64,000 nt of DNA from a virus, in IMG/VR virus record IMGVR_UViG_3300023493_000006, positions 10,434 through 74,433 of that record. The stretch is one strand, 5' to 3'. The position numbers and the translations under genes are program-made. This document shows positions 1 to 24,871 of this stretch, one piece after another. The notes under the pieces are model-generated. The model saw only the letters and a program-made list of their open reading frames with translations. It was not told where the DNA came from and did not search any database. The first letter of the stretch is position 1. The number at the start of each line of letters is the position of its first letter.

Positions 1-3000
1 TACGCTTCCAGAAAATTCACCTTGGTTAAAATGAACACCTGTATTGTCAATATATCCAACCTGTGCACCACTTGCATCCAGAATGGAAAGCAATCCGTTC
101 CCGTTATTTGAACCGCCAAGTTTCAATGTGCCTCCATGTGCATAGGTGAATGAAAAATACAATTCTCCATTTTCCATGTACATGCCCTTTATTGCACCAT
201 TGTTTGTAAGCATATTGAACACTTGCTCATTTGTGTAAGCGTATTCAAGTTTTGGCATATAAATATAAGTATCATATTTTACGCTAGAGCCAACTGATGA
301 TGTCAAGATTCTCAAACTGTTTAAACTATCATTTGGTAAGCTAGATAAAGTTGTTGTTACTTGCAGTCTTTGCCATTCAGTTGTAGTTTTAGCATTTAAT
401 ATTGTTTTACTTCCAAGATACACATATACTTGTGTTGCAACACTAGTTTTTATCCAAAACGAAAAAGTATAATTTCCAGTAACTTTTATTGGCTTATAAT
501 TTTTCGTTCCAAATTGTGCTCCAGTTCCGTTTATTTTTATTGCATTTTTACCGCCATCTACATCCTGGACTCCATACTCATATGTATATGCACTCTGTGT
601 AGACCAATAATCTTTAACATTTTGTTCTGTTAGATAATAGCCTTTAATAATATTGTCCGATGTAATATCTTGGACTTGTTTTATAGCTTCTTCCTGTGCT
701 ATATCAGTAACGCTTTTATCTCCTAATGTAAACTGTGAAGCTGCTATTGTTACTGCACCAGTAGTTTTGTCAATAGCAAAAGTGGTCTTTCCATTGCTAT
801 CAACAACCTTAATACCTTTGGCTTGCACGTATTCTCCGTTTACATAGACATTTCCGTTTTCATCCAAGTAAATCCCCTGTGCCTTGCCGCCATTGGTGAG
901 TTTGTTGAAAATATCGGCTTGTGTCTGTCCAGAAACTGCGGTGCTGGCAGAAGAATCTGCAATTTCCTTTACTGTTTTGCCTTGTAAGGAAAAAGTTTTT
1001 GGAGCTAGGATGACGTTTCCTTTGCTGTCGATTTCTAAGGTTACGTTCTTGTCATCATTAATGACTTTTAGCCCACGACCATTAATTCTCTCACCGGCAA
1101 GCAATCCAGCCAGAATATATTTTGCATTGATATATACTTTTCCGTCCTCGATGTAGATTCCCTGTTCTGTCCCGCCTTTTGTGAGTTTATTGAACACTTC
1201 ATCCTGTCCAAGACTGGTATCGTAATTATCAATTGCATTTTTGATATCGTCTTTGTCTGCGTACTTGAAGTCAATCCAATCGGATGCAGTAAAGTCACCA
1301 TTAATACGATTTACAAAAGAAGTTTTGAGAGAAGCCTTTCCTTCACTATTGGTCGTTACCCACAAGTCACCTTCGTAATATGGTGGTGTTGGCTGAATCA
1401 TGTAAACAGATGATTTACCGTCTATCTTGTCCAACAATTCATTTGGTATGGACTGTGGTTGCCAGATGCCAGATTTGTATATCCACTGGGTGTTATCCGT
1501 GGTATTATGCCAAAGATCGCCTTCATGCTCTACCTTCTCAGATTCCCATACCAAAACAATTTCATTCCCGGATTCATCCAGAATCTTGTTTCCGTCAATA
1601 TCACACCATGGATATTCCTCTGTTTTTGTCCATTTTACAGATGGATCGTTTGGCTGATACCAAGTCTCAATTTTCCCGTCTATCTGCGTCTTTAAAGAAT
1701 TAAGTGAATCTTTAAAAACACCATTGATAAATAAGTCTAAAGAGCTATCATCCGTATACTTTGAAGCCTTTTCCCAATCATCCACTGAATAAGAGCCGCT
1801 TGCTCTGGCAACCTTACATCTCATCAAGTCACCATTAGAGCCTTGCGTCCATAAGTCTCCAATATCGTAAGGCGGCTCTGGATGAACGACGAATACTCTG
1901 CGCTTATGATCTGCTGTGTCCTGTGCTTTTTCTGCGGCGGCAAGTGCTAACGTGATATCGGTATCTTGTACCAATTGCCACTTCCATGTTGCCCCATCTT
2001 GCATAAAGCGGTATGCATATCCCTTGGATTTCCAGTAAAACAAGTCACCCTCATGTTTCTTTCGTTCTTCGTTTGTAGTCCATCCAGAAGCCGGGATATT
2101 CTGTAAGGTTGGTTCATAATCATAAAAAAAAGTCTCAATCTGTCCATCGATTTGAGACTGTAAATTATTGATATCAGTTGTGTATGTATTGCTGATAAAA
2201 TTATTAACTTCTGTTTCTGCTTTTTCCTTTGCAATCGCATTAACATCTTTTCCCTTGACTTGGACGGAATCCGCATTAATAACAACTCTTCCTGTTGTTA
2301 CATCAACCAGGAAAGTTGTGTTTCCATCTTTATCAATAGCCTTAATGGTTCCTGTATTAATCCAGTCAGCATTAACACCTGTAGCAGTAAGAATTCTGGC
2401 AATCACATCACCATCAACAGTCATACCACCATTCCAATGTTGTCCGCCATCTGTAGAAACAGCCCACGCTTCCGCAGTCATTTTCCATACAATATCAGAA
2501 TCGGATAACTGTGGCTTGTTGTGAAGATAATAAATATTGCTTCCGTCCGGCTGTTGCTCTACGGTAGTATATACGCCAGAGGATTCCGCTAAACGATTAG
2601 ACAACTCCTCTATAGCTTTTTCTCTGGCGGTACGTTCATCTCTTAAATTCTTTTTGTTTTCTGCCTGTACTTGTTGATTAAGGCTGTATTGTTTCTGCTT
2701 ATTCCTAGATACACTCTTAGCACTGCATTCAAGCTGCTCAAATGTGCCTGGATTCAAAGCAACAGAAGTTAGGAAGCTCTTGTACTGTTTCCCATTTCTG
2801 TCGGAAATCTCAATGGTGTCACCAGCTTCCCATGCAATATTGGTCAATGCGCCTGTGGTAAACGGTCTGAATTTCAGCCCCACGCACCTGTCTGCGATAA
2901 TTTGACAGATTTTCTCGCCAGAGCCTTCTTGAATTAGCTTATTATCACTAATTTCGATAACATAGCCAGATTCCCCCGACTGATATGTTTTCGCTTCATT

Positions 3001-3852
3001 TTGAGAAGAATTTTCAACGTATTCTGTAACTTTTACACCTGTTATTTCGACATCGTACAGCCATGGTGTGAATCCATTTGTATCTATGGCTGTAATACCC
3101 TTTTGCATAACAGTTATAATCTGTGCGCCTTTTGTGTCAAGAATGTCGTTCCCATCAGTATCTTTCCATGGCGTTTCAACCAAATTGTAAAATTTATCCG
3201 GTACTTCACGCTCATACCATCCAAGGCAAAGCCTTCCGTATTCGTCACTTTTCGCCCACTGACAGCCCATCTGTGCTATCCATGCAATTACCTGTCTGAA
3301 GGTAATACTGCTATCATCTGGTCGATTCTGAATTACGAAATCATCATTATCAAACCTTGTAGATTGTAATGTAACGCCGCAGACCTCGCAAGCATCCTGT
3401 ATGATCTGTAATCTAGTTGCCGGATAGGACAGCTTACTTTCTGAATAATCACGATCAAACAATCGCATGGAATCTTCGCAAGTTAGGCTAATAATAGCGG
3501 TGTTCTGATATGGCGCATCTGTTACTGTCATGGTACAGATACGGATTTTTTCAATGCCAGTAGATAATTCAAGCCCAATATAGCAAACAACTCTCGCTCC
3601 GTCCCAGATGTAGTCTGTGTATTTGCCAGAAAAGTTGTTGATCTGCAATGTCAGCTTATTTACGATAGCTGCGCCGATATCAAAAGAACCGCTTTGCGAT
3701 ACTGCATCCTCAAATTTAAAGCCATTAGACCATAAATCTTTGTCGGTAATGGATAATGTACTTCCGTCTGTGAAGGTAAAATCTGCATATTTCAGATAGT
3801 TACGGTTCCCACTATTCTGTTGTTCTTTAAATTCCGTTGATAAATTTCGCAT
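1..3852 (-). CDS. Phage tail tip / host-specificity protein (Tal-like). N-terminal prophage-endopeptidase-tail domain followed by W-rich tail-fibre repeats. The C-terminus runs off the window start
   Basis: Open minus-strand frame from the ATG at 3852-3850 (RBS GAGGTAAG) down to position 1. N-terminus reads MRNLSTEFKEQQNSGN...TDKDLWSNGFKFEDAVSQSGSFDIGAAIVN, typical of Tal N-domains. Later there are repeated IETWYQPNDPS...W and GDLW motifs and GIYIEDGKVYINA-type fibre repeats. Confidence 0.75.
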   Translation of the reverse strand, partial: MRNLSTEFKEQQNSGNRNYLKYADFTFTDGSTLSITDKDLWSNGFKFEDAVSQSGSFDIGAAIVNKLTLQINNFSGKYTDYIWDGARVVCYIGLELSTGIEKIRICTMTVTDAPYQNTAIISLTCEDSMRLFDRDYSESKLSYPATRLQIIQDACEVCGVTLQSTRFDNDDFVIQNRPDDSSITFRQVIAWIAQMGCQWAKSDEYGRLCLGWYEREVPDKFYNLVETPWKDTDGNDILDTKGAQIITVMQKGITAIDTNGFTPWLYDVEITGVKVTEYVENSSQNEAKTYQSGESGYVIEISDNKLIQEGSGEKICQIIADRCVGLKFRPFTTGALTNIAWEAGDTIEISDRNGKQYKSFLTSVALNPGTFEQLECSAKSVSRNKQKQYSLNQQVQAENKKNLRDERTAREKAIEELSNRLAESSGVYTTVEQQPDGSNIYYLHNKPQLSDSDIVWKMTAEAWAVSTDGGQHWNGGMTVDGDVIARILTATGVNADWINTGTIKAIDKDGNTTFLVDVTTGRVVINADSVQVKGKDVNAIAKEKAETEVNNFISNTYTTDINNLQSQIDGQIETFFYDYEPTLQNIPASGWTTNEERKKHEGDLFYWKSKGYAYRFMQDGATWKWQLVQDTDITLALAAAEKAQDTADHKRRVFVVHPEPPYDIGDLWTQGSNGDLMRCKVARASGSYSVDDWEKASKYTDDSSLDLFINGVFKDSLNSLKTQIDGKIETWYQPNDPSVKWTKTEEYPWCDIDGNKILDESGNEIVLVWESEKVEHEGDLWHNTTDNTQWIYKSGIWQPQSIPNELLDKIDGKSSVYMIQPTPPYYEGDLWVTTNSEGKASLKTSFVNRINGDFTASDWIDFKYADKDDIKNAIDNYDTSLGQDEVFNKLTKGGTEQGIYIEDGKVYINAKYILAGLLAGERINGRGLKVINDDKNVTLEIDSKGNVILAPKTFSLQGKTVKEIADSSASTAVSGQTQADIFNKLTNGGKAQGIYLDENGNVYVNGEYVQAKGIKVVDSNGKTTFAIDKTTGAVTIAASQFTLGDKSVTDIAQEEAIKQVQDITSDNIIKGYYLTEQNVKDYWSTQSAYTYEYGVQDVDGGKNAIKINGTGAQFGTKNYKPIKVTGNYTFSFWIKTSVATQVYVYLGSKTILNAKTTTEWQRLQVTTTLSSLPNDSLNSLRILTSSVGSSVKYDTYIYMPKLEYAYTNEQVFNMLTNNGAIKGMYMENGELYFSFTYAHGGTLKLGGSNNGNGLLSILDASGAQVGYIDNTGVHFNQGEFSGSV

Positions 3853-3855
3853 ATC

Positions 3856-7059: not shown

Positions 7060-7275
7060 CTATTTCGCTTTTCTATCAATTTCCGCAGTTACGGCAAACA
7101 AAAGAGCTTCGGCAAATTTTGCTCCGACCGAATCGGAGTATTTATCGTGAATCCGGCTTGCTTCCATGGTGAGATTTTCCCACTGCGGAATATCGTCCTT
7201 TGAGATAAAAGCGTACTTCTTGTGAAGATTCCATATATCTTGCCAGATGGAAAAGTAAGTCTGCTTGAAATCCAT
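7060..7275 (-). CDS. Hypothetical protein (71 aa)
   Basis: ORF in the operon with 7275..7577. Confidence 0.4.
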   Translation of the reverse strand: MDFKQTYFSIWQDIWNLHKKYAFISKDDIPQWENLTMEASRIHDKYSDSVGAKFAEALLFAVTAEIDRKAK

Positions 7276-7577
7276 TATACGTACAACACTCCATGATATT
7301 TCTCGAGCCTATATTTCTGTTTCACATTTGGATATTTTTCACGATCTACCTCACTGTAAAACATATTTTTCGGTCTGGCGTATAATTGCTTACTGCCATA
7401 CAGGGCTTTGTATATCACTAGGTCTTCTCCTGTTTCCGTATGCCTAGCAAAACCGACAATCTCATACAGGTATTCATTGTCACGCGGATTCTCGATAGTT
7501 TCTCGCTTAAAGTGCTGTACAATATCCCCTGGCTTAAATAATTGTCTGTTCATTTTCATTGTTACCTTTCTCCACAA
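7275..7577 (-). CDS. DUF1653-like protein
   Basis: [36 protein letters not shown] matches the DUF1653 consensus (H-K-..Y.v..a.hTEt.e..VvY..Lyg...w.RP). Confidence 0.55.
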
Positions 7578-7665: not shown

Positions 7666-8298
7666 TTATCGCAGTAATTCTTTATCAATAATCTGGAAGT
7701 TCGCCCTGTGGATATAAAGAGCTTTTCCGTCAATCATTAACTTTGTCATTTTAGGTAGATCGTCCGGGATTTTCCAGAACACCTCGTCACCAGAATATGC
7801 GGCTATGGGCTGTCCAAGTTGAGATTTAATTACTACAACCCTAGATTTTCCGAAATAATTTTTATAATAATTTAGAATCCCGGCTATGTATGCGTTCTCT
7901 GAAATCTTCCCGGTTGAATGACTGGTAATATCTTCCTGGGTAAAATCAACCTCCGGCTCCAATCCTTTTTGCTCAAAAATACAAGTATCACCACAGCTTT
8001 CAATTTCTTTACCGTCAATCAGAATTGTAATAACGGAAGATACGTCATAGCTGGTTGTTTCGTTACCCTCGCTATCGTAGCCCTTGGATTTGGTTTTATT
8101 CCCGGCAATGTTGATCTTGTCCCCAGTGGTGGTCATAACCTTTTTGCCGTAGTTATCGTAGGTATAGATTGTGTAGCTGTTTCCAGAAAGATTTCCTTTC
8201 ACGTCATTCATGTAATCGTCATTCGCTGCACAGCCTGTTAGCCCTGTGATAATGCAAATACAGGTAATTATCGCCAGTAGTGTTTTGATTCTTTTCAT
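7666..8298 (-). CDS. Lipoprotein
   Basis: MKRIKTLLAIITCICIITGLTGC lipobox. Confidence 0.65.
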   Translation of the reverse strand: MKRIKTLLAIITCICIITGLTGCAANDDYMNDVKGNLSGNSYTIYTYDNYGKKVMTTTGDKINIAGNKTKSKGYDSEGNETTSYDVSSVITILIDGKEIESCGDTCIFEQKGLEPEVDFTQEDITSHSTGKISENAYIAGILNYYKNYFGKSRVVVIKSQLGQPIAAYSGDEVFWKIPDDLPKMTKLMIDGKALYIHRANFQIIDKELLR

Positions 8299-9637: not shown

Positions 9638-10309
9638 TTATGCCGCAATTTTATTAAGAAAATCTTCTATTTCTTCATAATTCCATCCATTACATATTAA
9701 TGCGCCAGCAATTTCAGTTAATTGTTTTATTTTTAAATTTTGCTCATCAGATAAATAAAATCTAAAACTTGTAAATTTCTTTGGTTTGTATTTTTTTACA
9801 AGGCTTTCCGTGTTTCCACCTAATACAATTTGGTATATCAAGTCAGAATAAATATTTGGCTCGTCAAGACCTTTTACGGCATTGGTGAATTTTTCAATTT
9901 CTTTATTCTCATTTGATAATCTTATATATTCTTCAACAGACGAATTAGTTAAGCCCAAAATTTTTTGGGAAATTTCCAATACTCTTTCTTTTACAGAATT
10001 AGCATATTCTTTTTTGATTGAACGCATTTCTTCTTCGGAAATATATTCGCCTATCTTATGTATGGTTTCATCAATTAAATTCAAATCAACAAAAGAAAAC
10101 CACTCTCCACCAATTCTGTATTTCTGGAACAACTTATGAAGCTTATTTTCTACAAAATATGGATTTTTTAAATAATTGCTTTCATAAATTATTTTTGAGA
10201 AAGGGAGACCACATGATACTTGTGCAAGCCTTTTTTCAACGCATTGGCTTGTCCCTATTTTATATTTTTCTTCATGTTTAAAAACGTAAATCTTTTTAAA
10301 ATTTTCCAT
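9638..10309 (-). CDS. T5orf172 (MUG113/GIY-YIG-like) domain protein
   Basis: Start MENFKKIYVFK (RBS GGGGAGG). IYVFK...YKIGTS..VEKRLAQ...VENKLHKLFQKYRIGGEWFSF matches the T5orf172 consensus (YKIG(T/S)...R......H..L...R..GEWF). Confidence 0.6.
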   Translation of the reverse strand: MENFKKIYVFKHEEKYKIGTSQCVEKRLAQVSCGLPFSKIIYESNYLKNPYFVENKLHKLFQKYRIGGEWFSFVDLNLIDETIHKIGEYISEEEMRSIKKEYANSVKERVLEISQKILGLTNSSVEEYIRLSNENKEIEKFTNAVKGLDEPNIYSDLIYQIVLGGNTESLVKKYKPKKFTSFRFYLSDEQNLKIKQLTEIAGALICNGWNYEEIEDFLNKIAA

Positions 10310-10462
10310 CAAGTTGTTTTCCTCCCCAAAATAAAAAAGAGCCGCCAAGTAAGATAAAAATTCCTCAAAATTGAGAAATATTAATTTCTTCTTAGCGGCT
10401 CAAAAATCAAAACCGTGTGTACTTCTTCATTAAAGAAATCATACCACACAATCAGTCAAAAA

Positions 10463-16632: not shown

Positions 16633-16926
16633 CTACTCTTCTTTTCCAGCTTGCTTAATAAGTTGATTTACATAATTACTTAATCCGGCAACGATAACGC
16701 CTTGTGTAATTGCGGTAAACAGTGCCATTGCAACTTCCTGTGAACCGGAAACTGTAGATGTTGCAAAAACATAAAGACCGCAAATTAATACACCAAGAAT
16801 TCCTAAAATCATTGGAATAAATTTGTCAGAAATATTTTCTGATTTTTTAATCATTACCCCGATAAAATAAAGAACTACAACGACAATAAGTAATTCTGGC
16901 TTTACATAACTTAAAATCTGATCCAT
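16633..16926 (-). CDS. LL-H-family-like phage holin (97 aa, 2-3 TM)
   Basis: KPELLIVVVVLYFIGVMIKK...DKFIPMILGILGVLICGLYVF...QGVIVAGLSNYVNQLIKQ. Pattern of LL-H type holins. Confidence 0.5.
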   Translation of the reverse strand: MDQILSYVKPELLIVVVVLYFIGVMIKKSENISDKFIPMILGILGVLICGLYVFATSTVSGSQEVAMALFTAITQGVIVAGLSNYVNQLIKQAGKEE

Positions 16927-18459: not shown

Positions 18460-20688
18460 TTAATTATTTAATGCTGATACGTTGTTACCATAGCAATCTT
18501 CTGATAGTTCATAAGATGTGTAAGGTTTTTCTTGGTATGTTCCTATTGCACTATCACTTTTACCCAATGTCCCACTCCAAAGCATATTGTTGTAAAAATG
18601 TTCCTCCATACCAGTACCTTCTTTTGTAAAAGGGCCAAGTTGGATTGATACGCCCTTATTTACTTTTAATATACAGTTAGATACTTCTAAGATTTGGTAA
18701 TAATTAGAACCATCGAAATATCCTCTGTGACACCCCAGTGCTCCTGTTTTCAGCGGTCTGCTGTAGAGTTCATACATTCTATCGGGCGTATCATTTATTA
18801 GCTCACAATTTCTAATAATGTATTTACAATTTTTAGCCATCCCAATTCCTACAGCTTGGTTTTGAGCTGAATATATAATACAATTTTCAATTATACCATT
18901 TTTTTCTGTTTCGTCTGAATAATCAGCGTTGTCAACATGTACGCCATAAGCTCCTATGGTGTAATCATCCCTTCTGTTTTCAACAAAATTAGGTGTACCA
19001 TCATGTGTCGCTTTAATTGTCAAATTTGAAATATAAAAATTGCCACTTGCAAATATAGGTGCATCATCATATCCACCTTTGTCATTCATTATTATGCAAT
19101 CTTTTTTATTAGTGCCAATAAGCGAAATATTTTTATTTTGAATGCTTACTGTTTCGTTGTAAACACCTGGGTATATTTTAATGGTTACAGGGTTCGATTT
19201 AGTAGCGAAAGAAGAAGCGTAGTTAACCGCTTTACCTATTGATGAAAACATTTTTTCGCCTGTTATTGACACTTCAACAATATTTTTACAGTTATTCAAT
19301 CTCTTCCATTCTAACCATGTCGAACCATTATTATATCTAAACCATAAAGTATTATCCGAAGAATTTAAGAAAAATTGGTAGCATCCACCTTTTAACTGTG
19401 TATTTAAGAACGAGAATAAGCATCCACTTAATGTCATACCATACACGGGTAAATTTTTAGTGCATTTTCCGTCTGCGATTTCCGATGTATTAAAGTAGCA
19501 ATAGTAATAGCCTTTTGTAGCGTTGTTTGCATCACTTAGAATTGTTTTATAGGTACTTGAAAAAAGAAAATCCGTTGAACTTTTAAATAATTCTACTGAA
19601 TTATCTAAATACTGAACCCATTTTGGAACGCCCTTTACAAAAATAGCGTTAACATAAGCACTTGTTGTTATTTCTATATCATTATTTATCCATAATACTA
19701 AATAGAAATGGTATGATGGGTACATTTTTCTAATTGAAACCAAATCCGCAGATGTAATATTTTGGTTTCCATTTACAAACGAATTACCGTTCCAGCACCC
19801 TACAGACGTATTGTGTTCGTCATACCCCCATAAATTAAAAACGTAGCCATTTAAAGCAACAACGCATTCAACATCTTCTGCTATATAATTTATGGTTGTA
19901 ATTCGTTGAGATGAATTGCCTTTATCACCATTCCAAATGCCCTTTCTCTCCCACAGTTCCTCACCATTTGCATTTTTTAAGCCTGTGAACGTAGCTATAT
20001 CTTCCTTTAGCGAACCAATAGCTTCTCCCGTTGCTTTTGCTTCTGCAAGCCCACCTTCTATAGTCAATGTAGTGTCTGGCTGTGATACACTCTGGATATC
20101 CTTAATAGCTTGTTCTTTTACGGAATTTACATTTTGAACAGCTTCCGCAGATGTGTTTTTAGTAAGCTCCAAAAGCTGATTTATAACATCTTTTTCTTCC
20201 TGTCCTATCTGTGGTTGATCAATCTCGATACCCTCTAGTATTGGTACTTCCGCTATTGCGGTATTCCATTCAACACTAATATTTGAATCGGAATCCGTTT
20301 TAACAGCGCAAACAATAAAACGTACCGTTCCCATATACCTTGCTGCATTTCTTCCAATCAACCAAGAAAAAGTTACATTTTCGCCATCTACAGCTACATC
20401 ATCACAAATGTATTGGTCTTTGATAGAAACATTAAAATCCACACTGCTTACGTTTTCAAAGTTAATTCTGACTGAAAATTTGGATAAATCAAGATTATCT
20501 CCTACAATTTTTGGACATGAAAATTTAATACGTTCTGCATTCTTGTCAGAATGCACCCCACCAACTACGATTGTAGAGGGCACGAAAATAGCCCTTGTCT
20601 TAGCGTCAATTGTGCATATATCGGATTCTTGAGAAAGCAAATTAACATCTTCTTTTGTGCTCATAAGTAAATCAAGTGCTGTTGCCAT
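18460..20688 (-). CDS. BppU-N-like baseplate/receptor-binding protein with a C-terminal right-handed beta-helix (pectin-lyase-like; candidate depolymerase)
   Basis: N-terminus MATALDLL..DAKTRAIFVP..SDKNAERIKFSCPKIV resembles BppU_N. C-terminus has NCxI/NxxI repeats (IIENCIIYSAQNQAVGIGMAKNCKYIIRNCELIND) typical of beta-helix glycosidases. RBS AGAGGGGG. Confidence 0.55.
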   Translation of the reverse strand: MATALDLLMSTKEDVNLLSQESDICTIDAKTRAIFVPSTIVVGGVHSDKNAERIKFSCPKIVGDNLDLSKFSVRINFENVSSVDFNVSIKDQYICDDVAVDGENVTFSWLIGRNAARYMGTVRFIVCAVKTDSDSNISVEWNTAIAEVPILEGIEIDQPQIGQEEKDVINQLLELTKNTSAEAVQNVNSVKEQAIKDIQSVSQPDTTLTIEGGLAEAKATGEAIGSLKEDIATFTGLKNANGEELWERKGIWNGDKGNSSQRITTINYIAEDVECVVALNGYVFNLWGYDEHNTSVGCWNGNSFVNGNQNITSADLVSIRKMYPSYHFYLVLWINNDIEITTSAYVNAIFVKGVPKWVQYLDNSVELFKSSTDFLFSSTYKTILSDANNATKGYYYCYFNTSEIADGKCTKNLPVYGMTLSGCLFSFLNTQLKGGCYQFFLNSSDNTLWFRYNNGSTWLEWKRLNNCKNIVEVSITGEKMFSSIGKAVNYASSFATKSNPVTIKIYPGVYNETVSIQNKNISLIGTNKKDCIIMNDKGGYDDAPIFASGNFYISNLTIKATHDGTPNFVENRRDDYTIGAYGVHVDNADYSDETEKNGIIENCIIYSAQNQAVGIGMAKNCKYIIRNCELINDTPDRMYELYSRPLKTGALGCHRGYFDGSNYYQILEVSNCILKVNKGVSIQLGPFTKEGTGMEEHFYNNMLWSGTLGKSDSAIGTYQEKPYTSYELSEDCYGNNVSALNN

Positions 20689-20691
20689 GTT

Positions 20692-21009
20692 CTACCCCCT
20701 CTGTGATACTTTAGTTTTACCAGTAGTTATAATGTATTTTCCGTTATCTTTTACGCCAGTGACAGATACCGAAAAATAATCCCAAGTAAGGGCTTCCGGC
20801 GGAATTTCACATTGATTGTTCTTCAGTATTACTGGGTATTCTTTTTCCATTCTCCAAAATGAAGCAGCTATTTTACATCCGTTCCACTCTTGAGAAAAGA
20901 TAAACAATGCTTTAAGATATCCAGTCGTGCCCTTTACCAGCCCAGAGAAATCACACTTGGGATCTGGATAAATTCTTTGATTATTTACAATAAATCTTAA
21001 TACTCTCAT
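20692..21009 (-). CDS. Hypothetical protein (105 aa)
   Basis: ORF. Confidence 0.4.
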   Translation of the reverse strand: MRVLRFIVNNQRIYPDPKCDFSGLVKGTTGYLKALFIFSQEWNGCKIAASFWRMEKEYPVILKNNQCEIPPEALTWDYFSVSVTGVKDNGKYIITTGKTKVSQRG

Positions 21010-21392
21010 GCAATCATCCTTTCCATTCCAACAGGCGAAACGTATGTAAATTGGTTTCCTAAAATATCTCTTGTTGTTCTAATAACAAACTGTCCGTAGT
21101 CTGCTAGAATATTGCATACAAATTCCTCTGCGTCCACCCAATATCGTTTATTAATCATACGGTGAAGCTCTGGCAGTAGACCATAGCTGAACATCACGCA
21201 ATGCCCTAATTCGTGGATAAATACACGGTTCAGAAGTTCTCCATGCAAGTTGCTTGCAATTGAAATTGTCATTGTAGAGTAATCAGATACAGCAAGTGTC
21301 CTTTGCCCTGTACGGTCAATCAAAACATTATCATTGGGAGAAACAAAGCGCACTCTCCATAAGTCCCCATTCATATAGAATTGTTTCAGCAT
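21006..21392 (-). CDS. Putative zinc metallopeptidase (HExxH; ImmA/IrrE- or SprT-like)
   Basis: VFIHELGHCVMFSYG contains the HExxH motif. Confidence 0.5.
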   Translation of the reverse strand: MLKQFYMNGDLWRVRFVSPNDNVLIDRTGQRTLAVSDYSTMTISIASNLHGELLNRVFIHELGHCVMFSYGLLPELHRMINKRYWVDAEEFVCNILADYGQFVIRTTRDILGNQFTYVSPVGMERMIA

Positions 21393-21468
21393 GGTTTCTC
21401 ACCATCCTTTCTACGAAAAAAGCCCCTGCCGCATTTACTTGCGACAAGGACTTAATTCATTTATTGCT

Positions 21469-22101
21469 CTAGTTCATCTGCTGTACAAGTCTGGTCAGGT
21501 CAGTTTTCATTGACTGTCTGAGCGTTGCATCTGCATCAGACCACATTTCCGTGAGATTACGGATAATATCAGATGTGTACTCCTTCATGGAATCATCCAT
21601 TTTTCTTTTGGATTCCGTGTCTTTGGAATCATGATAATGCCTACGATTCTCATCGTATCTATCATAGGATTCGCCATATCTGGACTTCTTCCAATTCATA
21701 TTCATACCATCATTTTCCATATCACTACGATCTGGATGATATCCCATGCGGTACATATTACGTTCAAACTCTGGATTGTTTAAATACTCGTCCATCCAGT
21801 CATCGTCTTCCATGTACAGATATGGCCTATAACCTTTTCTGGTTCCCCTACCTTTTGGAGCGAAACGCCCATTTGAATAGCGGTAACGGTCATATCCCAT
21901 GCGTCCAAGATACTTTTCTTCCTGTTCGCATTCATCCATAGCTTCCACAATGCGATAATCTTTATCAGCGCAAATCGCACATTTTACTGCTTCCATGCAG
22001 TCTTTCAGATCGTCCCAATCTTGAGCACTGAGATTATCAAAGCCATGTGTTTTGGCTTTTTCCATAGCCCATTTTCCCATTTCCATTGCAACTTTATGCA
22101 T
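21469..22101 (-). CDS. Low-complexity R/Y/D/M-rich protein (210 aa)
   Basis: GYDRYRYSNGRFAPKGRGTRKGYRPYLYMEDDDWMDEY... compositionally biased. Confidence 0.45.
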   Translation of the reverse strand: MHKVAMEMGKWAMEKAKTHGFDNLSAQDWDDLKDCMEAVKCAICADKDYRIVEAMDECEQEEKYLGRMGYDRYRYSNGRFAPKGRGTRKGYRPYLYMEDDDWMDEYLNNPEFERNMYRMGYHPDRSDMENDGMNMNWKKSRYGESYDRYDENRRHYHDSKDTESKRKMDDSMKEYTSDIIRNLTEMWSDADATLRQSMKTDLTRLVQQMN

Positions 22102-22541
22102 TACAGTGCCCCCTTTCTAACAGCCTGCGTAACAGGTGCTTCTGTCGTTGGGGCTGTACCATTAATTGCTTTCAAATTGTTGCTCGGACTACAAGCCGGA
22201 TTTCCTAACATCTTGAATACTCCGCCAGTTGCACTTGTAGCTACTCTGGTTGCGTACTTCGTTCTGGTTCTTATTCCACAAGCCGTAATCTGTGCACAGC
22301 AACGATTTTCTAACGGATACAAGGCTGTTCCTGTTCCTATCTGAATCATTACTGGGGCGGTAATTGTAGTGGCTTCTGGTATACTTTGTGCAACAACAAT
22401 ACAATATTTCTCTCCATTGTTGTAACTGCCTGCTGGGAGTGTGATTACAAGATTACCTCCTGTAAACGCAACAGCTTGGCTTATTACAAGACGGTTGCAG
22501 AGCTTACAAACATTTTTACAACTCATATTTCTACCTCTCAA
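22101..22541 (-). CDS. Cys-rich hypothetical protein (146 aa)
   Basis: CKNVCKLCNRL...RCCAQITACG. Nine Cys. Confidence 0.45.
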   Translation of the reverse strand: MRGRNMSCKNVCKLCNRLVISQAVAFTGGNLVITLPAGSYNNGEKYCIVVAQSIPEATTITAPVMIQIGTGTALYPLENRCCAQITACGIRTRTKYATRVATSATGGVFKMLGNPACSPSNNLKAINGTAPTTEAPVTQAVRKGAL

Positions 22542-22605
22542 TCAAAATAAGAGGTGAGCCGCAACCCACCTCTTAGAATTTAGTCAACCTCTAAGGGTGA
22601 GTTAC

Positions 22606-23397
22606 TTAGCAACAACCGTTACCATATGTATTACATCCTGCGTATGCATATGGAGCTGGAACCTGGAATGCAGGAATCGGAGCCGGGTTGATTGCATTGA
22701 TTAATCTCTGAGCCTGTGCGTACATCTCTGTTGTAAGCAATGCAGACTGGCGATCCTGGGATGCAGCACGTTTCAGATCAGAGTTCTCTGCCTGTAATGT
22801 TGCAATCTTATCGTTAGTCAGGAAGTCAAGGATTGCTCTTGTGTTGCTGTTCTGATTTTCCAGAAGATCTCTGGTGTTGTTGTTCATTGTGTTCTGGAGA
22901 GCACAAGTGTTAGTGGCAAGGTTATAATTGATGCCCTGGATTGCTTCTCTTGTTTCGCAGCAACAATTTGCTAACTGAGACTGTAATGCATTGGTATTCT
23001 GCATACCGGCTACAGTATCAGCATTGATTGCCTGCTGAACGCCGTTGAAGCCTTGAAGCATTCCGACATTCATACCATTAAAGCCACTCTGCATGGTATT
23101 GTTAAGAGAATATGTGCTGTCACAGATACCCTGCTGAATACCTCTGATACCATTTTGAATATCATTAAGGGCGAATTCCTCATTAATATCTGAACGGGTA
23201 GCCCATCCTTGGAAGCCGGCACCATTTGTACCATTGCCACCCCAGCCACCAAAGCCGCCGAAACCGCCCCAGCCAAAGATAAGCAATATTATAATCCACC
23301 ATGCCCAGCCACCGCCAAAGCCATAGCCTTCATCTGCACGGTTATTAGAGCCGCTTAATACAGCGACATCGCTTGCTGATAATCCACCATTCATCAT
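22606..23397 (-). CDS. Gly/Trp-rich membrane-anchored protein with a YjcZ-like motif and an N/Q-rich coiled C-terminal domain ending CNTYGNGCC
   Basis: EGYGFGGGWAWWIIILLIFGWGGFGGFGGWGG resembles the YjcZ sporulation-protein motif (GYGGG + TM). RBS AAGGAGG. Confidence 0.5.
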   Translation of the reverse strand: MMNGGLSASDVAVLSGSNNRADEGYGFGGGWAWWIIILLIFGWGGFGGFGGWGGNGTNGAGFQGWATRSDINEEFALNDIQNGIRGIQQGICDSTYSLNNTMQSGFNGMNVGMLQGFNGVQQAINADTVAGMQNTNALQSQLANCCCETREAIQGINYNLATNTCALQNTMNNNTRDLLENQNSNTRAILDFLTNDKIATLQAENSDLKRAASQDRQSALLTTEMYAQAQRLINAINPAPIPAFQVPAPYAYAGCNTYGNGCC

Positions 23398-23474
23398 AGC
23401 GATTACCTCCTTATTGATTTTTGTAATTTATACAAAATCAAAAGACCGCGGCTCTTTTAATTATTGTAGCGAAT

Positions 23475-23714
23475 TTATTTTATTCCAAACTGATTCTTAA
23501 CCTGCGATAACATATCATCAGGATTAATCCCTTTTTCTTGGCAAAGATTTCTTGCAAGTTTTTCAATTCCTGCATTATCACCTTTTTCCATCATGTTAAT
23601 TGCATTGTCAATTACAGGATTATTTCCAGACTGTTGTTTCATCATATTGATTATGGCTTGTTGAGGATTCCCTCCACCACGTATCATCTGCATAAGTTGC
23701 ATTGGATTCATCAT
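23475..23714 (-). CDS. Hypothetical protein (79 aa, M/N/Q-rich)
   Basis: ORF, 4-nt overlap with the upstream gene. Confidence 0.4.
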   Translation of the reverse strand: MMNPMQLMQMIRGGGNPQQAIINMMKQQSGNNPVIDNAINMMEKGDNAGIEKLARNLCQEKGINPDDMLSQVKNQFGIK

Positions 23715-24199
23715 CTCTGTTTACCTCCATTCTGCTTGGGTTCCGGTGTTCCCGACATTTGTGTCGGAAACATACTCTTTATTTCGGAAATCTCAGAACA
23801 AACATCGTTTCGAAGCTGATTAAACATAGCTTCTATGTCAATCGGTTTTTCTTCTGCCTTTGGTTGCTGTTGTTCTTCCGGATTTATAAGTCGGTAAACA
23901 AAAATTCTACTTCTTCCATCTGCCTGTAATTGTTTTCTATATATTTCTGTTCCATCTGTTTTTGGATAATAAACAGGGTTTCCAGACATATCTACGTCTT
24001 TTGCCTTTACAGTATCAATGCCATCTACCATCTGCCCTTGTAACATGGGAATTTGTGGTACTTGTGGCATTGGTTGTTGAATTTGTGCCTGTCCGTATGG
24101 CATTGCCTGCTGATAACTATTCTGCAATTGTGCTAATCTATCTTGATACGGCTGTATTTGTTGAAATGGTTGCGCAAAATACGGATTACCATACTGCAT
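23711..24199 (-). CDS. Q/P-rich low-complexity protein (162 aa)
   Basis: PYGQAQIQQPMPQVPQIPMLQGQ. RBS AAGGGAGG. Confidence 0.45.
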   Translation of the reverse strand: MQYGNPYFAQPFQQIQPYQDRLAQLQNSYQQAMPYGQAQIQQPMPQVPQIPMLQGQMVDGIDTVKAKDVDMSGNPVYYPKTDGTEIYRKQLQADGRSRIFVYRLINPEEQQQPKAEEKPIDIEAMFNQLRNDVCSEISEIKSMFPTQMSGTPEPKQNGGKQR

Positions 24200-24289
24200 A
24201 TCTCAAACCTCCCTTGTTTTTATAACTATATTTTACAATAATAAGAGGTTGATTAACACGCCACGATAACGCCATAAATACGCCACGTT

Positions 24290-24529
24290 TTATGAATACA
24301 AAGAAAAGCCCCGACAATACATCGGGGCGACTTTCATAATTTTCTTCTTTAATTTTCTGTTTATGCGGTCTACTGTTCTTGTGCTGTAGCCCATGATTTC
24401 TGAAGCTTCTGCAAGTGTTTTTTCTTCGTAAACACGCAATCTGAATAACTCTTTTTCTCTGGAATCAAATCCAGCTTCACGCAAATAGAAGATTCTTTCA
24501 TCTTCTGAAAAGTCTTTATAATCATCCAT
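24290..24529 (-). CDS. Small sigma-70 region-4-like HTH protein
   Basis: LAEASEIMGYSTRTVDRINRKLKKKI is a sigma-r4 / LuxR-type HTH. RBS AGGGAGGA. Confidence 0.55.
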   Translation of the reverse strand: MDDYKDFSEDERIFYLREAGFDSREKELFRLRVYEEKTLAEASEIMGYSTRTVDRINRKLKKKIMKVAPMYCRGFSLYS

Positions 24530-24559
24530 TCCACTGTCCTCCCTGTAGTGGAATCAATA

Positions 24560-24871
24560 TTACACCGGGAAAATGCCTTTAAGGGCAAAGCCTAAAACAA
24601 TACCGATTATGCCAGTTATGACATAAGCAATAATTTTGTCCTGTAATTTTCCTGGCTTTTCCATGAGTGCTTTTAAATTGTCGTTCATTTCGTCAACTGT
24701 ATCTTTGATGTGTCCCAGATCGTTGTTGTATAAAGCAATTTTCTGTTCTAGCGCATTGATACGATTAAAAAAGCCTTCATCCCTTTTGGAATGCTTTTCT
24801 TTCATCTCATGGACGGCACTTTCCAATTCTTGCAAGCGGTGTTCGTTGATACACTCGTGTTCACATCCCAT
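24560..24871 (-). CDS. XhlA-like (haemolysin XhlA family) coiled-coil protein with a C-terminal TM
   Basis: Coiled-coil LQELESAVHEMKEKHSKRDEG...LEQKI followed by TM IIAYVITGIIGIVLGFALKGIF. RBS GGAAAGGA. Confidence 0.45.
   Translation of the reverse strand: MGCEHECINEHRLQELESAVHEMKEKHSKRDEGFFNRINALEQKIALYNNDLGHIKDTVDEMNDNLKALMEKPGKLQDKIIAYVITGIIGIVLGFALKGIFPV

What the first reader, a model, noticed from the sequence alone, without database searches (positions are those of the whole stretch)
20692..24871. Nine-gene block of atypical proteins inserted between the connector and the tail genes
Between the head-tail connector and the BppU-like gene lie: an XhlA-like coiled-coil/TM protein; a bare sigma-70 region-4 HTH; a Q/P-rich protein; an M/N/Q-rich 79-aa protein; a 263-aa protein whose N-terminus (GYGFGGGWAWWIIILLIFGWGGFGGFGGWGG) mimics YjcZ-type sporulation peptides and whose C-terminus is N/Q-rich and ends in CNTYGNGCC; a 9-Cys protein; an R/Y/D/M-rich low-complexity protein; an HExxH metallopeptidase; and a 105-aa unknown. 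All have strong RBSs and are co-oriented with the structural genes. None is a standard virion component. The composition resembles spore-coat or exosporium-like and lysis-accessory proteins. It could be a lysis/egress module, a sporulation-interfering cargo, or virion decoration
Basis: partly seen in the sequence, partly recalled or inferred. Interest (0 to 1): 0.65.

Follow-up and report, generated by a model that had tools for sequence, protein, structure and literature searches.

The report
Mobile late-gene cassette of gut phages
The nine odd genes are real. Most of them form a self-contained, horizontally mobile gene cassette of unknown function, found in thousands of gut phages, and there is no evidence that it is a spore-coat mimic or an ordinary neck protein set.

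Summary
All nine ORFs exist on the minus strand with Shine-Dalgarno sites, and the compositional descriptions hold, with small corrections. They are not one unit. Genes A-H (24871-21006) are fixed at this position in 79-80 of 80 related phages. Gene I plus the 742-aa gene J is an optional pair (30/80).

The core, C-D-E-F-G with the small sigma-70 region-4 protein B upstream and a small peptidase nearby, recurs in the same order in about 80 unrelated Clostridia prophages. In those it sits elsewhere: after a minor capsid gene, after the endolysin, or at the prophage end.

Homologues of the 263-aa protein E, followed by F-, C- and G-like genes and in one case a zincin, occur in Bacteroides and crAss-like phages. 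E alone occurs in predicted viruses of methanogenic archaea. This argues against a sporulation role.

F and G are more conserved than portal or capsid protein. F models as a Cys-rich beta-sandwich with only weak resemblance to tail-fibre domains. No component has a named function in Pfam, PHROGs, NCBIfam, PADLOC or PDB.

My best reading (about 0.4) is a lysis-linked, B-controlled "very late" operon that builds a membrane-anchored complex acting at the cell envelope around egress. The function is inferred, not shown.

The parts
24560..24871 (-). A: 103-aa XhlA-like protein, with an N-terminal coiled coil and a C-terminal TM anchor
   Evidence: phrog_937 at 1.4e-14. Kyte-Doolittle 19-residue maximum 2.23 at residues 80-98. 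Present in 79/80 relatives.
24290..24529 (-). B: 79-aa protein with a sigma-70 region-4 HTH only; candidate regulator of the cassette
   Evidence: PF04545 at 4.1e-07, 29.8 bits, above the cutoff. TIGR02937 at 8e-09, below its cutoff. Median identity 98% among relatives. A B-type gene lies upstream of C in 45 of 84 divergent loci.
24308..24328 (-). Intrinsic-terminator-like hairpin overlapping the 3' end of B
   Evidence: 9-bp stem with 6 GC pairs, followed by a T run. A hairpin plus T run follows B in 30/43 divergent loci.
24258..24285 (-). Three TGGCGT repeats at 11-nt spacing between the B terminator and C; candidate operator or promoter element
   Evidence: Unique in the window, 0.02 expected by chance. 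Conserved with 3-4 copies in relatives. Other B types are followed by different iterated repeats.
23711..24199 (-). C: 162 aa, with a Q/P/Y-rich N-terminus, a small conserved beta-rich domain and a C-terminal helix
   Evidence: phrog_21718 at 7.6e-19. Found in 73/84 divergent loci directly upstream of D and E. Alignment A6. No PDB relative.
23475..23714 (-). D: 79 aa, with an M/N/Q-rich N-terminus and a helical C-terminal part
   Evidence: A 66-91 aa gene occupies this slot in most of the 84 divergent loci. Divergent forms match phrog_22984. Two alleles about 30% identical exist within the phage family.
22606..23397 (-). E: 263 aa and the hallmark protein. It has a short N-terminus, a G/W/F-rich hydrophobic segment (about residues 30-55), an N/Q-rich region of about 190 aa taken to be helical from its sequence (no prediction was run) with invariant Cys (C92, CCC145-147, C165), a Pro-rich linker and a terminal Cys cluster
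   Evidence: phrog_16490 at 1.6e-68. At least 7951 clusters at 90% identity. Alignment A2. At least 597 IMG/VR loci. 158 genome loci, and nearly all of the 80 kept are titled as Clostridia or other Bacillota. Homologues in Bacteroides, crAss-like and predicted archaeal viruses.
22548..22575 (-). Terminator-like hairpin after E
   Evidence: 12-bp stem followed by a T run. Present in 54/80 relatives and 14/91 divergent homologues.
22101..22526 (-). F: 141 aa with 8 Cys (N-terminal CxxxCxxC); predicted 8-strand beta-sandwich
21469..22101 (-). G: 210 aa, with helical N- and C-terminal segments flanking an R/Y/D/S-rich low-complexity region
   Evidence: Found in 68/84 divergent loci after the F slot. 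Divergent members match phrog_28802 at 3e-61. Alignment A7. Minimum identity 84% among relatives.
21420..21453 (-). Terminator-like hairpin after G; end of the C-G unit
   Evidence: 14-bp stem followed by a T run. Present in 79/79 relatives and 26/72 divergent loci.
21006..21392 (-). H: 128-aa minimal HExxH (zincin-type) peptidase-like protein
   Evidence: HELGH motif. phrog_1233 at 5.9e-10. Peptidase_M78 at E 0.089, sub-threshold. Found in 26/84 divergent loci, usually after G. The analogous slot holds a PolyVal zincin in a Bacteroides phage.
20692..21009 (-). I: 105 aa; not part of the cassette; an optional gene that comes together with J
   Evidence: phrog_19695 at 7.4e-18. Present with J in only 30/80 relatives.
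18460..20688 (-). J: 742-aa optional fibre- or spike-like protein, outside the finding's coordinates
   Evidence: Sub-threshold pectinesterase hit at residues 472-553. No PHROG family. Co-varies with I.

Best explanation
The block is mainly one conserved, horizontally mobile accessory cassette.

Anatomy. Its core is an operon C-D-E-F-G, closed by a terminator. Upstream lie a small single-pass membrane protein (here the XhlA-like A) and a 63-79-aa sigma-70 region-4 DNA-binding protein (B). A small peptidase accompanies it (here the HExxH protein H; in other versions a papain-like protein).

Proposed regulation. I propose that B is made from the late or lysis transcript, which stops at the hairpin after B. 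B would then act at the 11-nt-spaced repeats in front of C to switch on C-G as a 'very late' unit.

Proposed products. E inserts into the cytoplasmic membrane by its G/W/F-rich segment. Through its long helical, Cys-bearing domain it would assemble with the Cys-rich beta-sandwich F and the low-complexity proteins C, D and G. The peptidase may process one of them.

Proposed function. The complex acts on the infected cell's envelope at or just before lysis, as an egress or envelope-disruption accessory that does not depend on virion architecture. In this phage lineage the cassette moved from its usual place beside the lysis genes into the gap between the head and tail genes, and became fixed there.

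Shown: gene content, order, mobility, distribution, conservation, hairpins and repeats.
Inferred: B binding to the repeats, membrane insertion of E, complex formation, and the envelope/egress function.
For: Mobility and autonomy:
- A-H are in the same order in 79-80 of 80 relatives, even where TerL and portal are only 40-80% identical.
- In 84 divergent loci found through E, C occurs in 73, G in 68, B in 45, D in 36 and H in 26. F, or the unrelated F' in the same slot, occurs in 34 + 38. The order is fixed. The window's own head and tail genes occur in 0-1 of these loci.
- Positions differ. The cassette follows Phage_min_cap2 in 8 of 37 loci, lies within 3.5 kb of endolysin-domain genes in about 10 of 37, and lies next to host genes or an integrase in several.

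Link to lysis:
- A is XhlA-like.
- In Anaerotruncus the order is XhlA-like, a 92-aa gene, a protein whose sequence I read as a GH25 endolysin (Glyco_hydro_25 is among the families found upstream of the cassette), H, B, C, D, E, F, G', then host ruvC.
- In Bajarodcaudo virus 5 the cassette follows the holin and endolysin.
- The gene just upstream of B is a 60-170-aa single-TM protein in 23 of 37 loci.
- A canonical holin gene is itself inserted among the tail genes of this lineage, in 41 of 80 relatives. Lysis-type genes therefore do get placed inside this structural operon.

Transcript architecture:
- Hairpins plus T runs follow B, E and G.
- A unique triple repeat lies upstream of C. Other B variants are followed by different repeats.

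Membrane character: the hydrophobic segment of E is conserved from Clostridia to Bacteroides and predicted archaeal-virus homologues.

Constraint: F (at least 80% identical) and G (at least 84%) are more conserved than portal (73%) and major capsid protein (71%). F is 71% identical in an Anaerotruncus prophage whose E is 49% identical.

Host independence: cassette variants occur in Bacteroides and crAss-like phages, and E occurs in predicted Methanomassiliicoccales viruses. This fits a target as generic as a lipid bilayer.
Against: - No component matches a holin, endolysin, spanin or any other lysis family except A.
- Canonical holins and endolysins are present next to the cassette, so it is not needed for basic lysis.
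- C, D, F and G show no N-terminal hydrophobic stretch of the kind a signal peptide needs. If they bind E, they do so in the cytoplasm or only after lysis.
- The hydrophobic core of E is short (12-15 residues) and has almost no flanking charges, so its topology, and even its membrane insertion, is uncertain.
- In 8 of 37 loci, in this window and in crAss-like phages, the cassette sits among head or tail genes. The F model weakly resembles tail-fibre domains. A virion-associated role is therefore not excluded.
- B binding to the repeats is untested.
- Part of the family assignment rests on iterated profiles. One of these (I) was seen to drift, although the cassette families are supported by their conserved positions.
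Confidence: 0.4

Rival explanations
1. Virion-associated fibre or ejection module. E would be a trimeric coiled-coil shaft, or a membrane-inserting pilot protein kept soluble by D. F would be a knob domain. C and G would be flexible adaptors or co-ejected proteins, and the peptidase would process them. The set would be packaged or attached to particles and would act on the next host's envelope.
For: - Depositors annotated crAss-like and Bacteroides E homologues as 'spike protein/glycoprotein' or 'viral fiber'.
- The cassette lies inside head or tail gene clusters here, in Dulem virus 35, in 8 of 37 loci after the minor capsid gene, and in crAss-like phages. It lies next to DGR-type tail proteins in cr52_1 and the archaeal viruses.
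- Small zincin or papain-like peptidases and low-complexity proteins would suit proteins that must pass through a tail channel. This last point is inference.
Against: - The cassette moves among unrelated capsid, portal and tail backbones and among different predicted morphotypes. A particle component would need a specific docking site on each.
- F is extremely conserved across hosts, the opposite of receptor-binding parts.
- The cassette is also found after the endolysin and next to the integrase and immunity region.
- It carries its own regulator and terminators.
Confidence: 0.22
2. Moron-type cargo. The products would be released at lysis, or displayed by lysogens, and would act outside the producing cell. 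Possible roles are a Cys-rich toxin or lectin-like effector, an adhesive or cross-linked matrix, or a surface or exclusion structure that benefits the lysogen population in the gut.
For: - The cassette occupies typical moron positions: the prophage end next to host genes, and between the integrase and the immunity region.
- It has its own regulator and terminators.
- The module is seen mainly in gut and faecal samples and crosses host phyla.
- Proteins rich in Cys, Tyr and Arg suggest cross-linking or adhesion after release. This is inference.
- The extreme conservation of F would suit a conserved external target.
Against: - There are no signal peptides and no similarity to any toxin, adhesin or exclusion family.
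- The cassette is co-oriented with, and embedded in, late operons, including those of crAss-like phages.
- Five or more conserved genes is a lot for an exclusion function.
Confidence: 0.18
3. Sporulation-interfering or spore-coat/exosporium-mimicking cargo.
For: - The composition is Cys-rich, Tyr/Arg/Asp-rich and Gln/Pro-rich, with a Gly/aromatic segment in E reminiscent of YjcZ peptides.
- Many hosts are spore-forming Clostridia.
- Region 4 of B also scores weakly against SigF/SigG models.
Against: - No sporulation, coat or exosporium family is matched.
- The F model finds no match described as C1q, TNF or BclA.
- E with F-, C- and G-like neighbours occurs in Bacteroides and crAss-like phages, and E occurs in predicted viruses of methanogenic archaea. 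The cassette also occurs in a phage of Butyrivibrio. To my knowledge these hosts do not sporulate.
Confidence: 0.04
4. Ordinary head-completion or neck proteins of this phage family that are simply too divergent to be recognised.
For: - A-H are present in all 80 relatives between the putative connector gene and the downstream genes K, L and M.
- The flanking small genes also lack family matches.
Against: - The same genes, in the same order, occur in about 80 prophages that share none of this family's head or tail genes, and at other genome positions.
- A and E are predicted to carry a membrane segment and B is a DNA-binding protein.
- There are internal terminators.
Confidence: 0.03

Closest known systems
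The xhlA-xhlB-xlyA lysis cassette of the Bacillus subtilis PBSX prophage (XhlA family, PF10779 / phrog_937)
   Same: A has the XhlA architecture (coiled coil plus C-terminal TM) and matches phrog_937. In several prophages an XhlA-like gene, a small membrane protein and an endolysin directly precede the cassette.
   Different: In the window, no holin or endolysin lies next to A. The six to seven genes that follow (B-H) have no counterpart in PBSX. Pfam XhlA is not reached (E 0.33).
Spanins (Rz/Rz1-type) and class I viral fusion proteins, as functional analogues
   Same: E has an N-terminal hydrophobic segment, a long helical region with conserved Cys and a Pro-rich, Cys-bearing C-terminus. This recalls an i-spanin joined to an o-spanin-like tail. 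The depositors' 'spike/glycoprotein' labels also point to coiled-coil fusion proteins.
   Different: There is no sequence or profile similarity to any solved structure. There is no partner with a lipoprotein signal. Most hosts are monoderm Clostridia, which to my knowledge need no spanin.
Phage morons and late-operon accessory cassettes (for example, toxin genes placed beside lysis genes)
   Same: It is an autonomous unit with its own regulator and terminators. It is inserted at module boundaries of late operons or at prophage ends, and it moves between backbones.
   Different: It is far larger (5-9 genes) and far more widely conserved than typical morons. It is fixed in whole phage lineages. 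None of its products resembles a known moron function.
Small MPTase-PolyVal / ImmA-IrrE-type zincin peptidases of phages
   Same: H has the HExxH core and is of minimal size. The analogous slot in Bacteroides phage C3_41T2LP is annotated as a PolyVal metallopeptidase, and the H profile touches it at E 0.001.
   Different: H reaches no curated threshold (M78 at E 0.089). It is a stand-alone 105-128-aa protein. It is neither a domain of a giant polyvalent protein nor paired with an XRE-type repressor.
Distal domains of phage tail fibres (for example, Pa193 gp47)
   Same: This is the best structural match of the F model in two independent searches, and many BFVD fibre proteins also match.

Membership tests
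XhlA (PF10779 / phrog_937), for A | Significant match to the family profile | tested here: inconclusive
   phrog_937 at 1.4e-14 over the full length. Pfam XhlA scores 11.6 bits against a cutoff of 34.7, E 0.33.
XhlA (PF10779 / phrog_937), for A | Protein of about 70-115 aa with an N-terminal coiled coil and a C-terminal membrane anchor | tested here: met
   103 aa. Coiled-coil-type hits cover residues 10-80. The hydrophobic maximum of 2.23 lies at residues 80-98.
XhlA (PF10779 / phrog_937), for A | Encoded directly next to a holin and an endolysin | tested here: not met
   In the window A is followed by B, with no holin or endolysin adjacent. This feature is met in some other loci, such as L097 and L134.
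Sigma-70 family sigma factor, for B | Region 4 (recognition of the -35 element, HTH) | tested here: met
   PF04545 at 29.8 bits, above the cutoff of 24.1, covering residues 22-59.
Sigma-70 family sigma factor, for B | Region 2 (core binding and -10 recognition) | tested here: not met
   B is 79 aa in total and only region 4 matches. It is therefore not a sigma factor, only a region-4-type HTH protein.
YjcZ-like sporulation peptides (TIGR01732), for E | Match to the family profile; tiny protein of about 50 aa | tested here: not met
   No NCBIfam hit for E at E <= 0.1. E is 263 aa.
Exosporium BclA-type / C1q-TNF jelly-roll, for F | C1q/TNF-like fold | tested here: not met
Holins, for E and A | Match to a holin family; small membrane protein with a charged C-terminus | tested here: not met
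   No holin family in Pfam, PHROGs or NCBIfam matches A or E. The recognisable holin of this phage lies elsewhere, at 16926-16633 (PF16079 at 8.9e-28).
Two-component spanins, for E | An i-spanin with an N-terminal TM and periplasmic coiled coil, plus an o-spanin lipoprotein partner, in a diderm host | tested here: inconclusive
   The TM-plus-helical architecture is present. I saw no gene with a lipoprotein signal on reading the block's translations. Most hosts are Clostridia. Spanin activity cannot be tested here.
Zincin metallopeptidase (M78/ImmA-IrrE or MPTase-PolyVal), for H | HExxH motif within a family-level profile match | tested here: inconclusive
   HELGH is present. Peptidase_M78 at E 0.089 and DUF6782 at 0.16, both below cutoff. 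phrog_1233 at 5.9e-10, function unknown.
Head-tail connector or neck proteins | Profile match, and co-inheritance with the capsid/tail backbone | tested here: not met
   No structural family is matched. The genes occur with unrelated backbones and at other positions.
Known anti-phage defence systems (PADLOC) | Match to any defence protein model | tested here: not met
   Only coiled-coil noise, at E >= 0.001.
Distal domain of phage tail fibres, for F | Significant structural similarity | tested here: inconclusive

The most novel reading that the evidence does not exclude
The E-centred cassette may be a previously unrecognised functional system that gut viruses share across host phyla and even domains (Bacillota, Bacteroidota, possibly methanogenic archaea). 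It would be a B-regulated 'very late' operon whose membrane-active, fusion-protein-like E protein and Cys-rich partners carry out an undescribed step of virus egress or envelope remodelling. That step would work on any lipid bilayer and would be distinct from holin, endolysin and spanin action.
Probability: 0.2. Interest if true: 0.85.

Novelty: categorically new. Interest (0 to 1): 0.68.

Why it matters
The cassette takes about 3.5-4 kb of genome. It occurs in thousands of human-gut phage and prophage sequences. The exact C protein of this window is seen on 943 contigs. The E family has at least 7951 clusters at 90% identity.

Two of its genes are held more constant than the capsid and portal genes. 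It crosses host phyla. Despite this, every component is 'hypothetical' in every library searched.

A module this widespread and this constrained should perform an important step in the phage life cycle in the gut. Defining that step would annotate a large share of gut-virome 'dark matter'. If the envelope/egress reading is right, it would add a new element to the textbook lysis pathway of phages of Gram-positive anaerobes.

The cassette also offers a simple genetic handle: B, its repeats and the C-G operon. This handle could be used for experiments in cultivable hosts such as Clostridium perfringens phages CPD1/CPQ4, Butyrivibrio phage Ceridwen and Bacteroides phage C3_41T2LP.

Tried and rejected
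1. Sporulation or exosporium link. No family hits. Occurrence in Bacteroides, crAss-like and predicted archaeal viruses. Rejected.
2. My own recollection that the alternative slot protein F' looks like the BclA C-terminal domain. Neither Pfam nor a profile search of PDB sequences supports it. The fold could not be modelled because only window or database-returned sequences may be submitted. Left as an untested lead.
3. Homology between F and F'. hhalign probability 0.6%. Rejected: two unrelated families occupy the same slot.
4. D as the detached N-terminal domain of the longer Bacteroides and archaeal E proteins (a 'Rosetta stone' fusion). The D profile gives no significant match to them. Rejected.
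5. I as a paralogue of K. This was suggested by the iterated I profile, but it was profile drift. BLASTP found nothing and hhalign gave 0.5%. Rejected. It is also a warning about rounds 3-4 of my iterated searches.
6. First AF2 model of F from 36 close homologues: pLDDT 46, unusable. Adding 10 sequences at about 30% identity gave a usable model.
7. Profile searches of PDB sequences for E, F, F', C and G found nothing significant.
8. PADLOC found no defence system.
9. Literature searches for the PHROG numbers, for DUF7841, and for XhlA with Lachnospiraceae prophages found no description of the cassette. The 'spike protein' of cultured crAss-like phages in PMC10569736 is a different protein, a glycoside-hydrolase tail spike.
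10. The small TM proteins upstream of B match no annotated PHROG family, and most match none, so I do not call them holins.
11. The afdb50 fold library was not available.

Full report
**Setting.** All genes of the region are on the minus strand. Read in the direction of transcription, the order is as follows. Large terminase (31447-29753, phrog_38). A DUF1492 protein. Portal (phrog_64). Scaffold (phrog_172). A small head protein (phrog_909). Major capsid protein (26546-25509, phrog_29). Then the nine genes A-I. Then a 742-aa gene J. Then three small genes K, L and M with no functional family match. Then a Hol44-type holin (16926-16633, PF16079 at 8.9e-28), the major tail protein (phrog_158), two small genes and a 1554-aa tape measure-sized gene. 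The window is a large phage-like genome with four tRNA genes. At its left end an open frame of at least 1285 codons, probably a tail gene, runs off the window.

**Observation.** The nine ORFs exist at the stated coordinates, and each has a GGAGG-like site upstream.
- A matches the XhlA-type phrog_937 (1.4e-14) and has a C-terminal TM segment.
- B is a bare sigma-70 region 4 (PF04545, above threshold).
- C is Q/P-rich. D is M/N/Q-rich.
- E has the G/W/F-rich hydrophobic segment and the terminal Cys cluster.
- G is R/Y/D/M-rich. H carries HELGH.

Corrections:
- F begins at the ATG at 22526, giving 141 aa with 8 Cys, as in all its homologues.
- The YjcZ likeness has no profile support.
- Neither the 'connector' nor the 'BppU-like' label of the flanking genes is confirmed by Pfam or PHROGs.

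**The block is two units.** A tblastn comparison with 80 IMG/VR contigs found through E shows A-H in the same order and place in 79-80 of 80. This holds even where TerL and portal have diverged to 40-80% identity. By contrast, I and J occur together in only 30 of 80. Within this family the minimum identity of F is 80% and of G is 84%. That is higher than for portal (73%) and major capsid protein (71%). D exists as two alleles that are only about 30% identical.

**The cassette is mobile.** E homologues were collected from 80 bacterial genome loci, nearly all titled as Clostridia or other Bacillota: Lachnospiraceae, Oscillospiraceae, Ruminococcus, Anaerotruncus colihominis, Enterocloster, Lachnospira and others. 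More came from annotated phages.

Iterated profile searches of the ORFs in these 84 divergent loci find C in 73, G in 68, B in 45, D in 36, F in 34 and H in 26. The window's own head and tail genes occur in 0-1.

The order is constant: B, sometimes a 125-129-aa protein with papain-like Cys and His motifs (my reading; phrog_3754, function unknown), C, D, E, an F-slot gene, G, and often H. Where F is not detected, an unrelated family of about 140 aa, F' (phrog_20016), fills the same slot in 38 loci. hhalign gives a 0.6% probability of homology between F and F'.

Three loci carry an extra 216-287-aa ORF inside the cassette that I read, from its motifs, as an HNH-type homing endonuclease.

**Where it sits.**
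- In Dulem virus 35, and in 8 of 37 analysed loci, the cassette follows the SPP1-gp7-like minor capsid gene.
- In about 10 of 37 loci, genes with endolysin domains lie within 3.5 kb upstream.
- In several loci host genes are adjacent.
- In Bajarodcaudo virus 5 it follows the holin and endolysin at the end of the late operon.
- In Anaerotruncus the order is XhlA-like, a 92-aa gene, a protein whose sequence I read as a GH25 endolysin, H, B, C, D, E, F, a G-type protein with DUF7841, then host ruvC.
- In another prophage type it lies at the prophage end next to metH. In the circular form of that phage, this is between the integrase and the immunity region.
- The gene immediately upstream of B is a 60-170-aa single-TM protein in 23 of 37 loci, and an endolysin in at least three. 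These small membrane proteins match no annotated PHROG family, and most match none.

The cassette is therefore an autonomous unit. It is usually attached to the lysis end of the late region. In this lineage it has been moved to the head-tail junction, taking the XhlA-like gene with it.

**Across phyla.** The E profile matches a 305-aa protein of Bacteroides phage C3_41T2LP (3e-36) and gp23 of the crAss-like phage cr52_1 (4e-24). Both have the same hydrophobic segment, CCC motif and Pro/Cys-rich end.

In the Bacteroides phage, E is followed by several genes. First comes a beta-rich F-slot protein. Next is a protein with a small N-terminal domain plus a coiled coil, which is C-like. Then come an R/D/Y-rich 77-aa protein (G-like), a protein I read as DUF7841-like, and a PolyVal zincin. 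cr52_1 has a G-like gene just upstream of E and an F-slot and a C-like gene after it. It shows no zincin, and a gene annotated as LysB/FtsL-like lies two genes upstream of E.

A tblastn search with the Bacteroides E protein finds 54 phage records. These include 18 labelled 'uncultured phage cr…', which are crAss-like genomes, and four records (two distinct viruses) assigned to Methanomassiliicoccales. In the latter, E (annotated phrog_16490) lies near a tail protein of the family (phrog_5302) that sits beside a reverse transcriptase in vir215, a likely DGR cassette. E also lies beside membrane proteins there, but no F, C or G counterparts are evident. The archaeal host assignment is the depositors' prediction.

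**Regulatory anatomy.** On the coding strand there are terminator-like hairpins overlapping the end of B (24328-24308), after E (22575-22548) and after G (21453-21420). A hairpin plus T run follows G in 79/79 relatives and 26/72 divergent loci. It follows B in 30/43 divergent loci, and follows E in 54/80 relatives.

Between the B hairpin and C lie three TGGCGT repeats at 11-nt spacing. This arrangement is unique in the window, with 0.02 expected by chance. The repeats are conserved with 3-4 copies in relatives. Loci with other B types carry other iterated repeats at the same place: TGACGT, TTTGCGT and TGATAC. This suggests that B is the cassette's own DNA-binding regulator. That is an inference.

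**The proteins.** E belongs to a family of at least 7951 clusters at 90% identity, and F to 4884. All are 'hypothetical' where named. At 50% identity, F has 455 clusters, nearly all single-domain proteins.

No profile finds a solved structure by sequence for E, F, F', C or G. PADLOC finds nothing.

F is 71% identical between this window and an Anaerotruncus prophage whose E is 49% identical. That degree of conservation is not what a receptor-binding part shows.

**Interpretation.** The portability of the cassette among unrelated backbones, its own regulator and terminators, its usual place beside small membrane proteins and endolysins, and its two predicted membrane proteins (A and E) all point the same way. 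They indicate a virion-independent, late or 'very late' function at the cell envelope.

Several facts keep a virion-associated fibre or ejection role, and a released-cargo role, alive as rivals. The partners of E lack signal peptides. Canonical holins and endolysins sit alongside the cassette. The cassette lies among head and tail genes in some lineages. F has a weak fibre-like fold.

The sporulation reading is disfavoured by the Bacteroides, crAss-like and archaeal-virus homologues and by the lack of any family support. The 'ordinary neck proteins' reading is excluded by the cassette's occurrence with other backbones.

**Limits.** The function is inferred from context. One of them (I) drifted, although the cassette families are corroborated by their conserved order. 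The loci were found through E, so they cannot show how often E occurs without the other genes.

Noticed in passing
window 16633-16926 (-): A Hol44-type holin gene (PF16079 at 8.9e-28; phrog_1129) sits between a small unknown gene and the major tail protein gene. This is far from any endolysin in the window. It is present at this spot in only 41 of 80 related contigs, so it is an optional insertion.
   Followed up: partly
window 18460-21009 (-): Genes I (105 aa, phrog_19695) and J (742 aa, sub-threshold pectinesterase-like region at residues 472-553) are present or absent together (30/80 relatives). An early round of the I profile also matched the 708-aa protein of Butyrivibrio phage Ceridwen at L002 2383-4509. 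This suggests an optional fibre- or spike-like pair.
   Followed up: partly
window 24258-24285 (-): Three TGGCGT repeats at exactly 11-nt spacing lie between the B terminator and gene C (expected by chance 0.02). Relatives have 3-4 copies. Cassettes with other B variants carry different iterated repeats at the same place.
   Followed up: partly
window 23475-23714 (-) and loci L003-L082: Gene D occurs as two alleles only about 30% identical, inside cassettes that are otherwise 80-100% identical. E also looks mosaic, with different N-terminal, middle and C-terminal variants recombined (alignment A2).
   Followed up: partly
L083 5603-6253; L002 10040-10903; L145 8964-9809: Extra ORFs of 216-287 aa, which I read from their motifs as HNH-type homing endonuclease genes, are inserted inside the cassette (between D and E, or between F' and G) in three unrelated phages.
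   Followed up: no
window 35209-36223 (-): Four tRNA genes are clustered in the early or middle region of the phage genome (Rfam RF00005, 55-67 bits).
   Followed up: no
window 9638-10348 (-): A gene with T5orf172/MUG113 domains, which I take to be a homing-endonuclease-like gene, lies directly downstream of the 1554-aa tape-measure-sized gene. Genes for DUF5052 (7666-8298) and DUF1653 (7275-7577) proteins follow it.
   Followed up: no
window 29327-29749 (-): A 140-aa DUF1492 protein is encoded between the large terminase and the portal. Its C-terminal half reads like an HTH to me, though this was not tested. It may be a second small regulator in the late region besides B.
   Followed up: no
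window 1-3855 (-): An open reading frame of at least 1285 codons, probably a large tail protein, runs off the left end of the window. The ORF lister therefore misses it.
   Followed up: partly
L168 (crAss-like phage cr52_1, NC_055888): With the standard bacterial code, many annotated genes contain in-frame stops, including the E homologue gp23. This is consistent with the stop-codon reassignment known in some crAss-like phages. It splits the E homologue into two ORFs in my ORF calls.
   Followed up: no
L165-L167 (prophage next to metH): The same E, C and D genes are followed by different downstream versions: G intact or split in two, and H immediately after G or displaced about 2 kb. A DUF4352 protein is encoded on the opposite strand between the cassette and the antirepressor/HTH genes in two of the three loci.
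   Followed up: no
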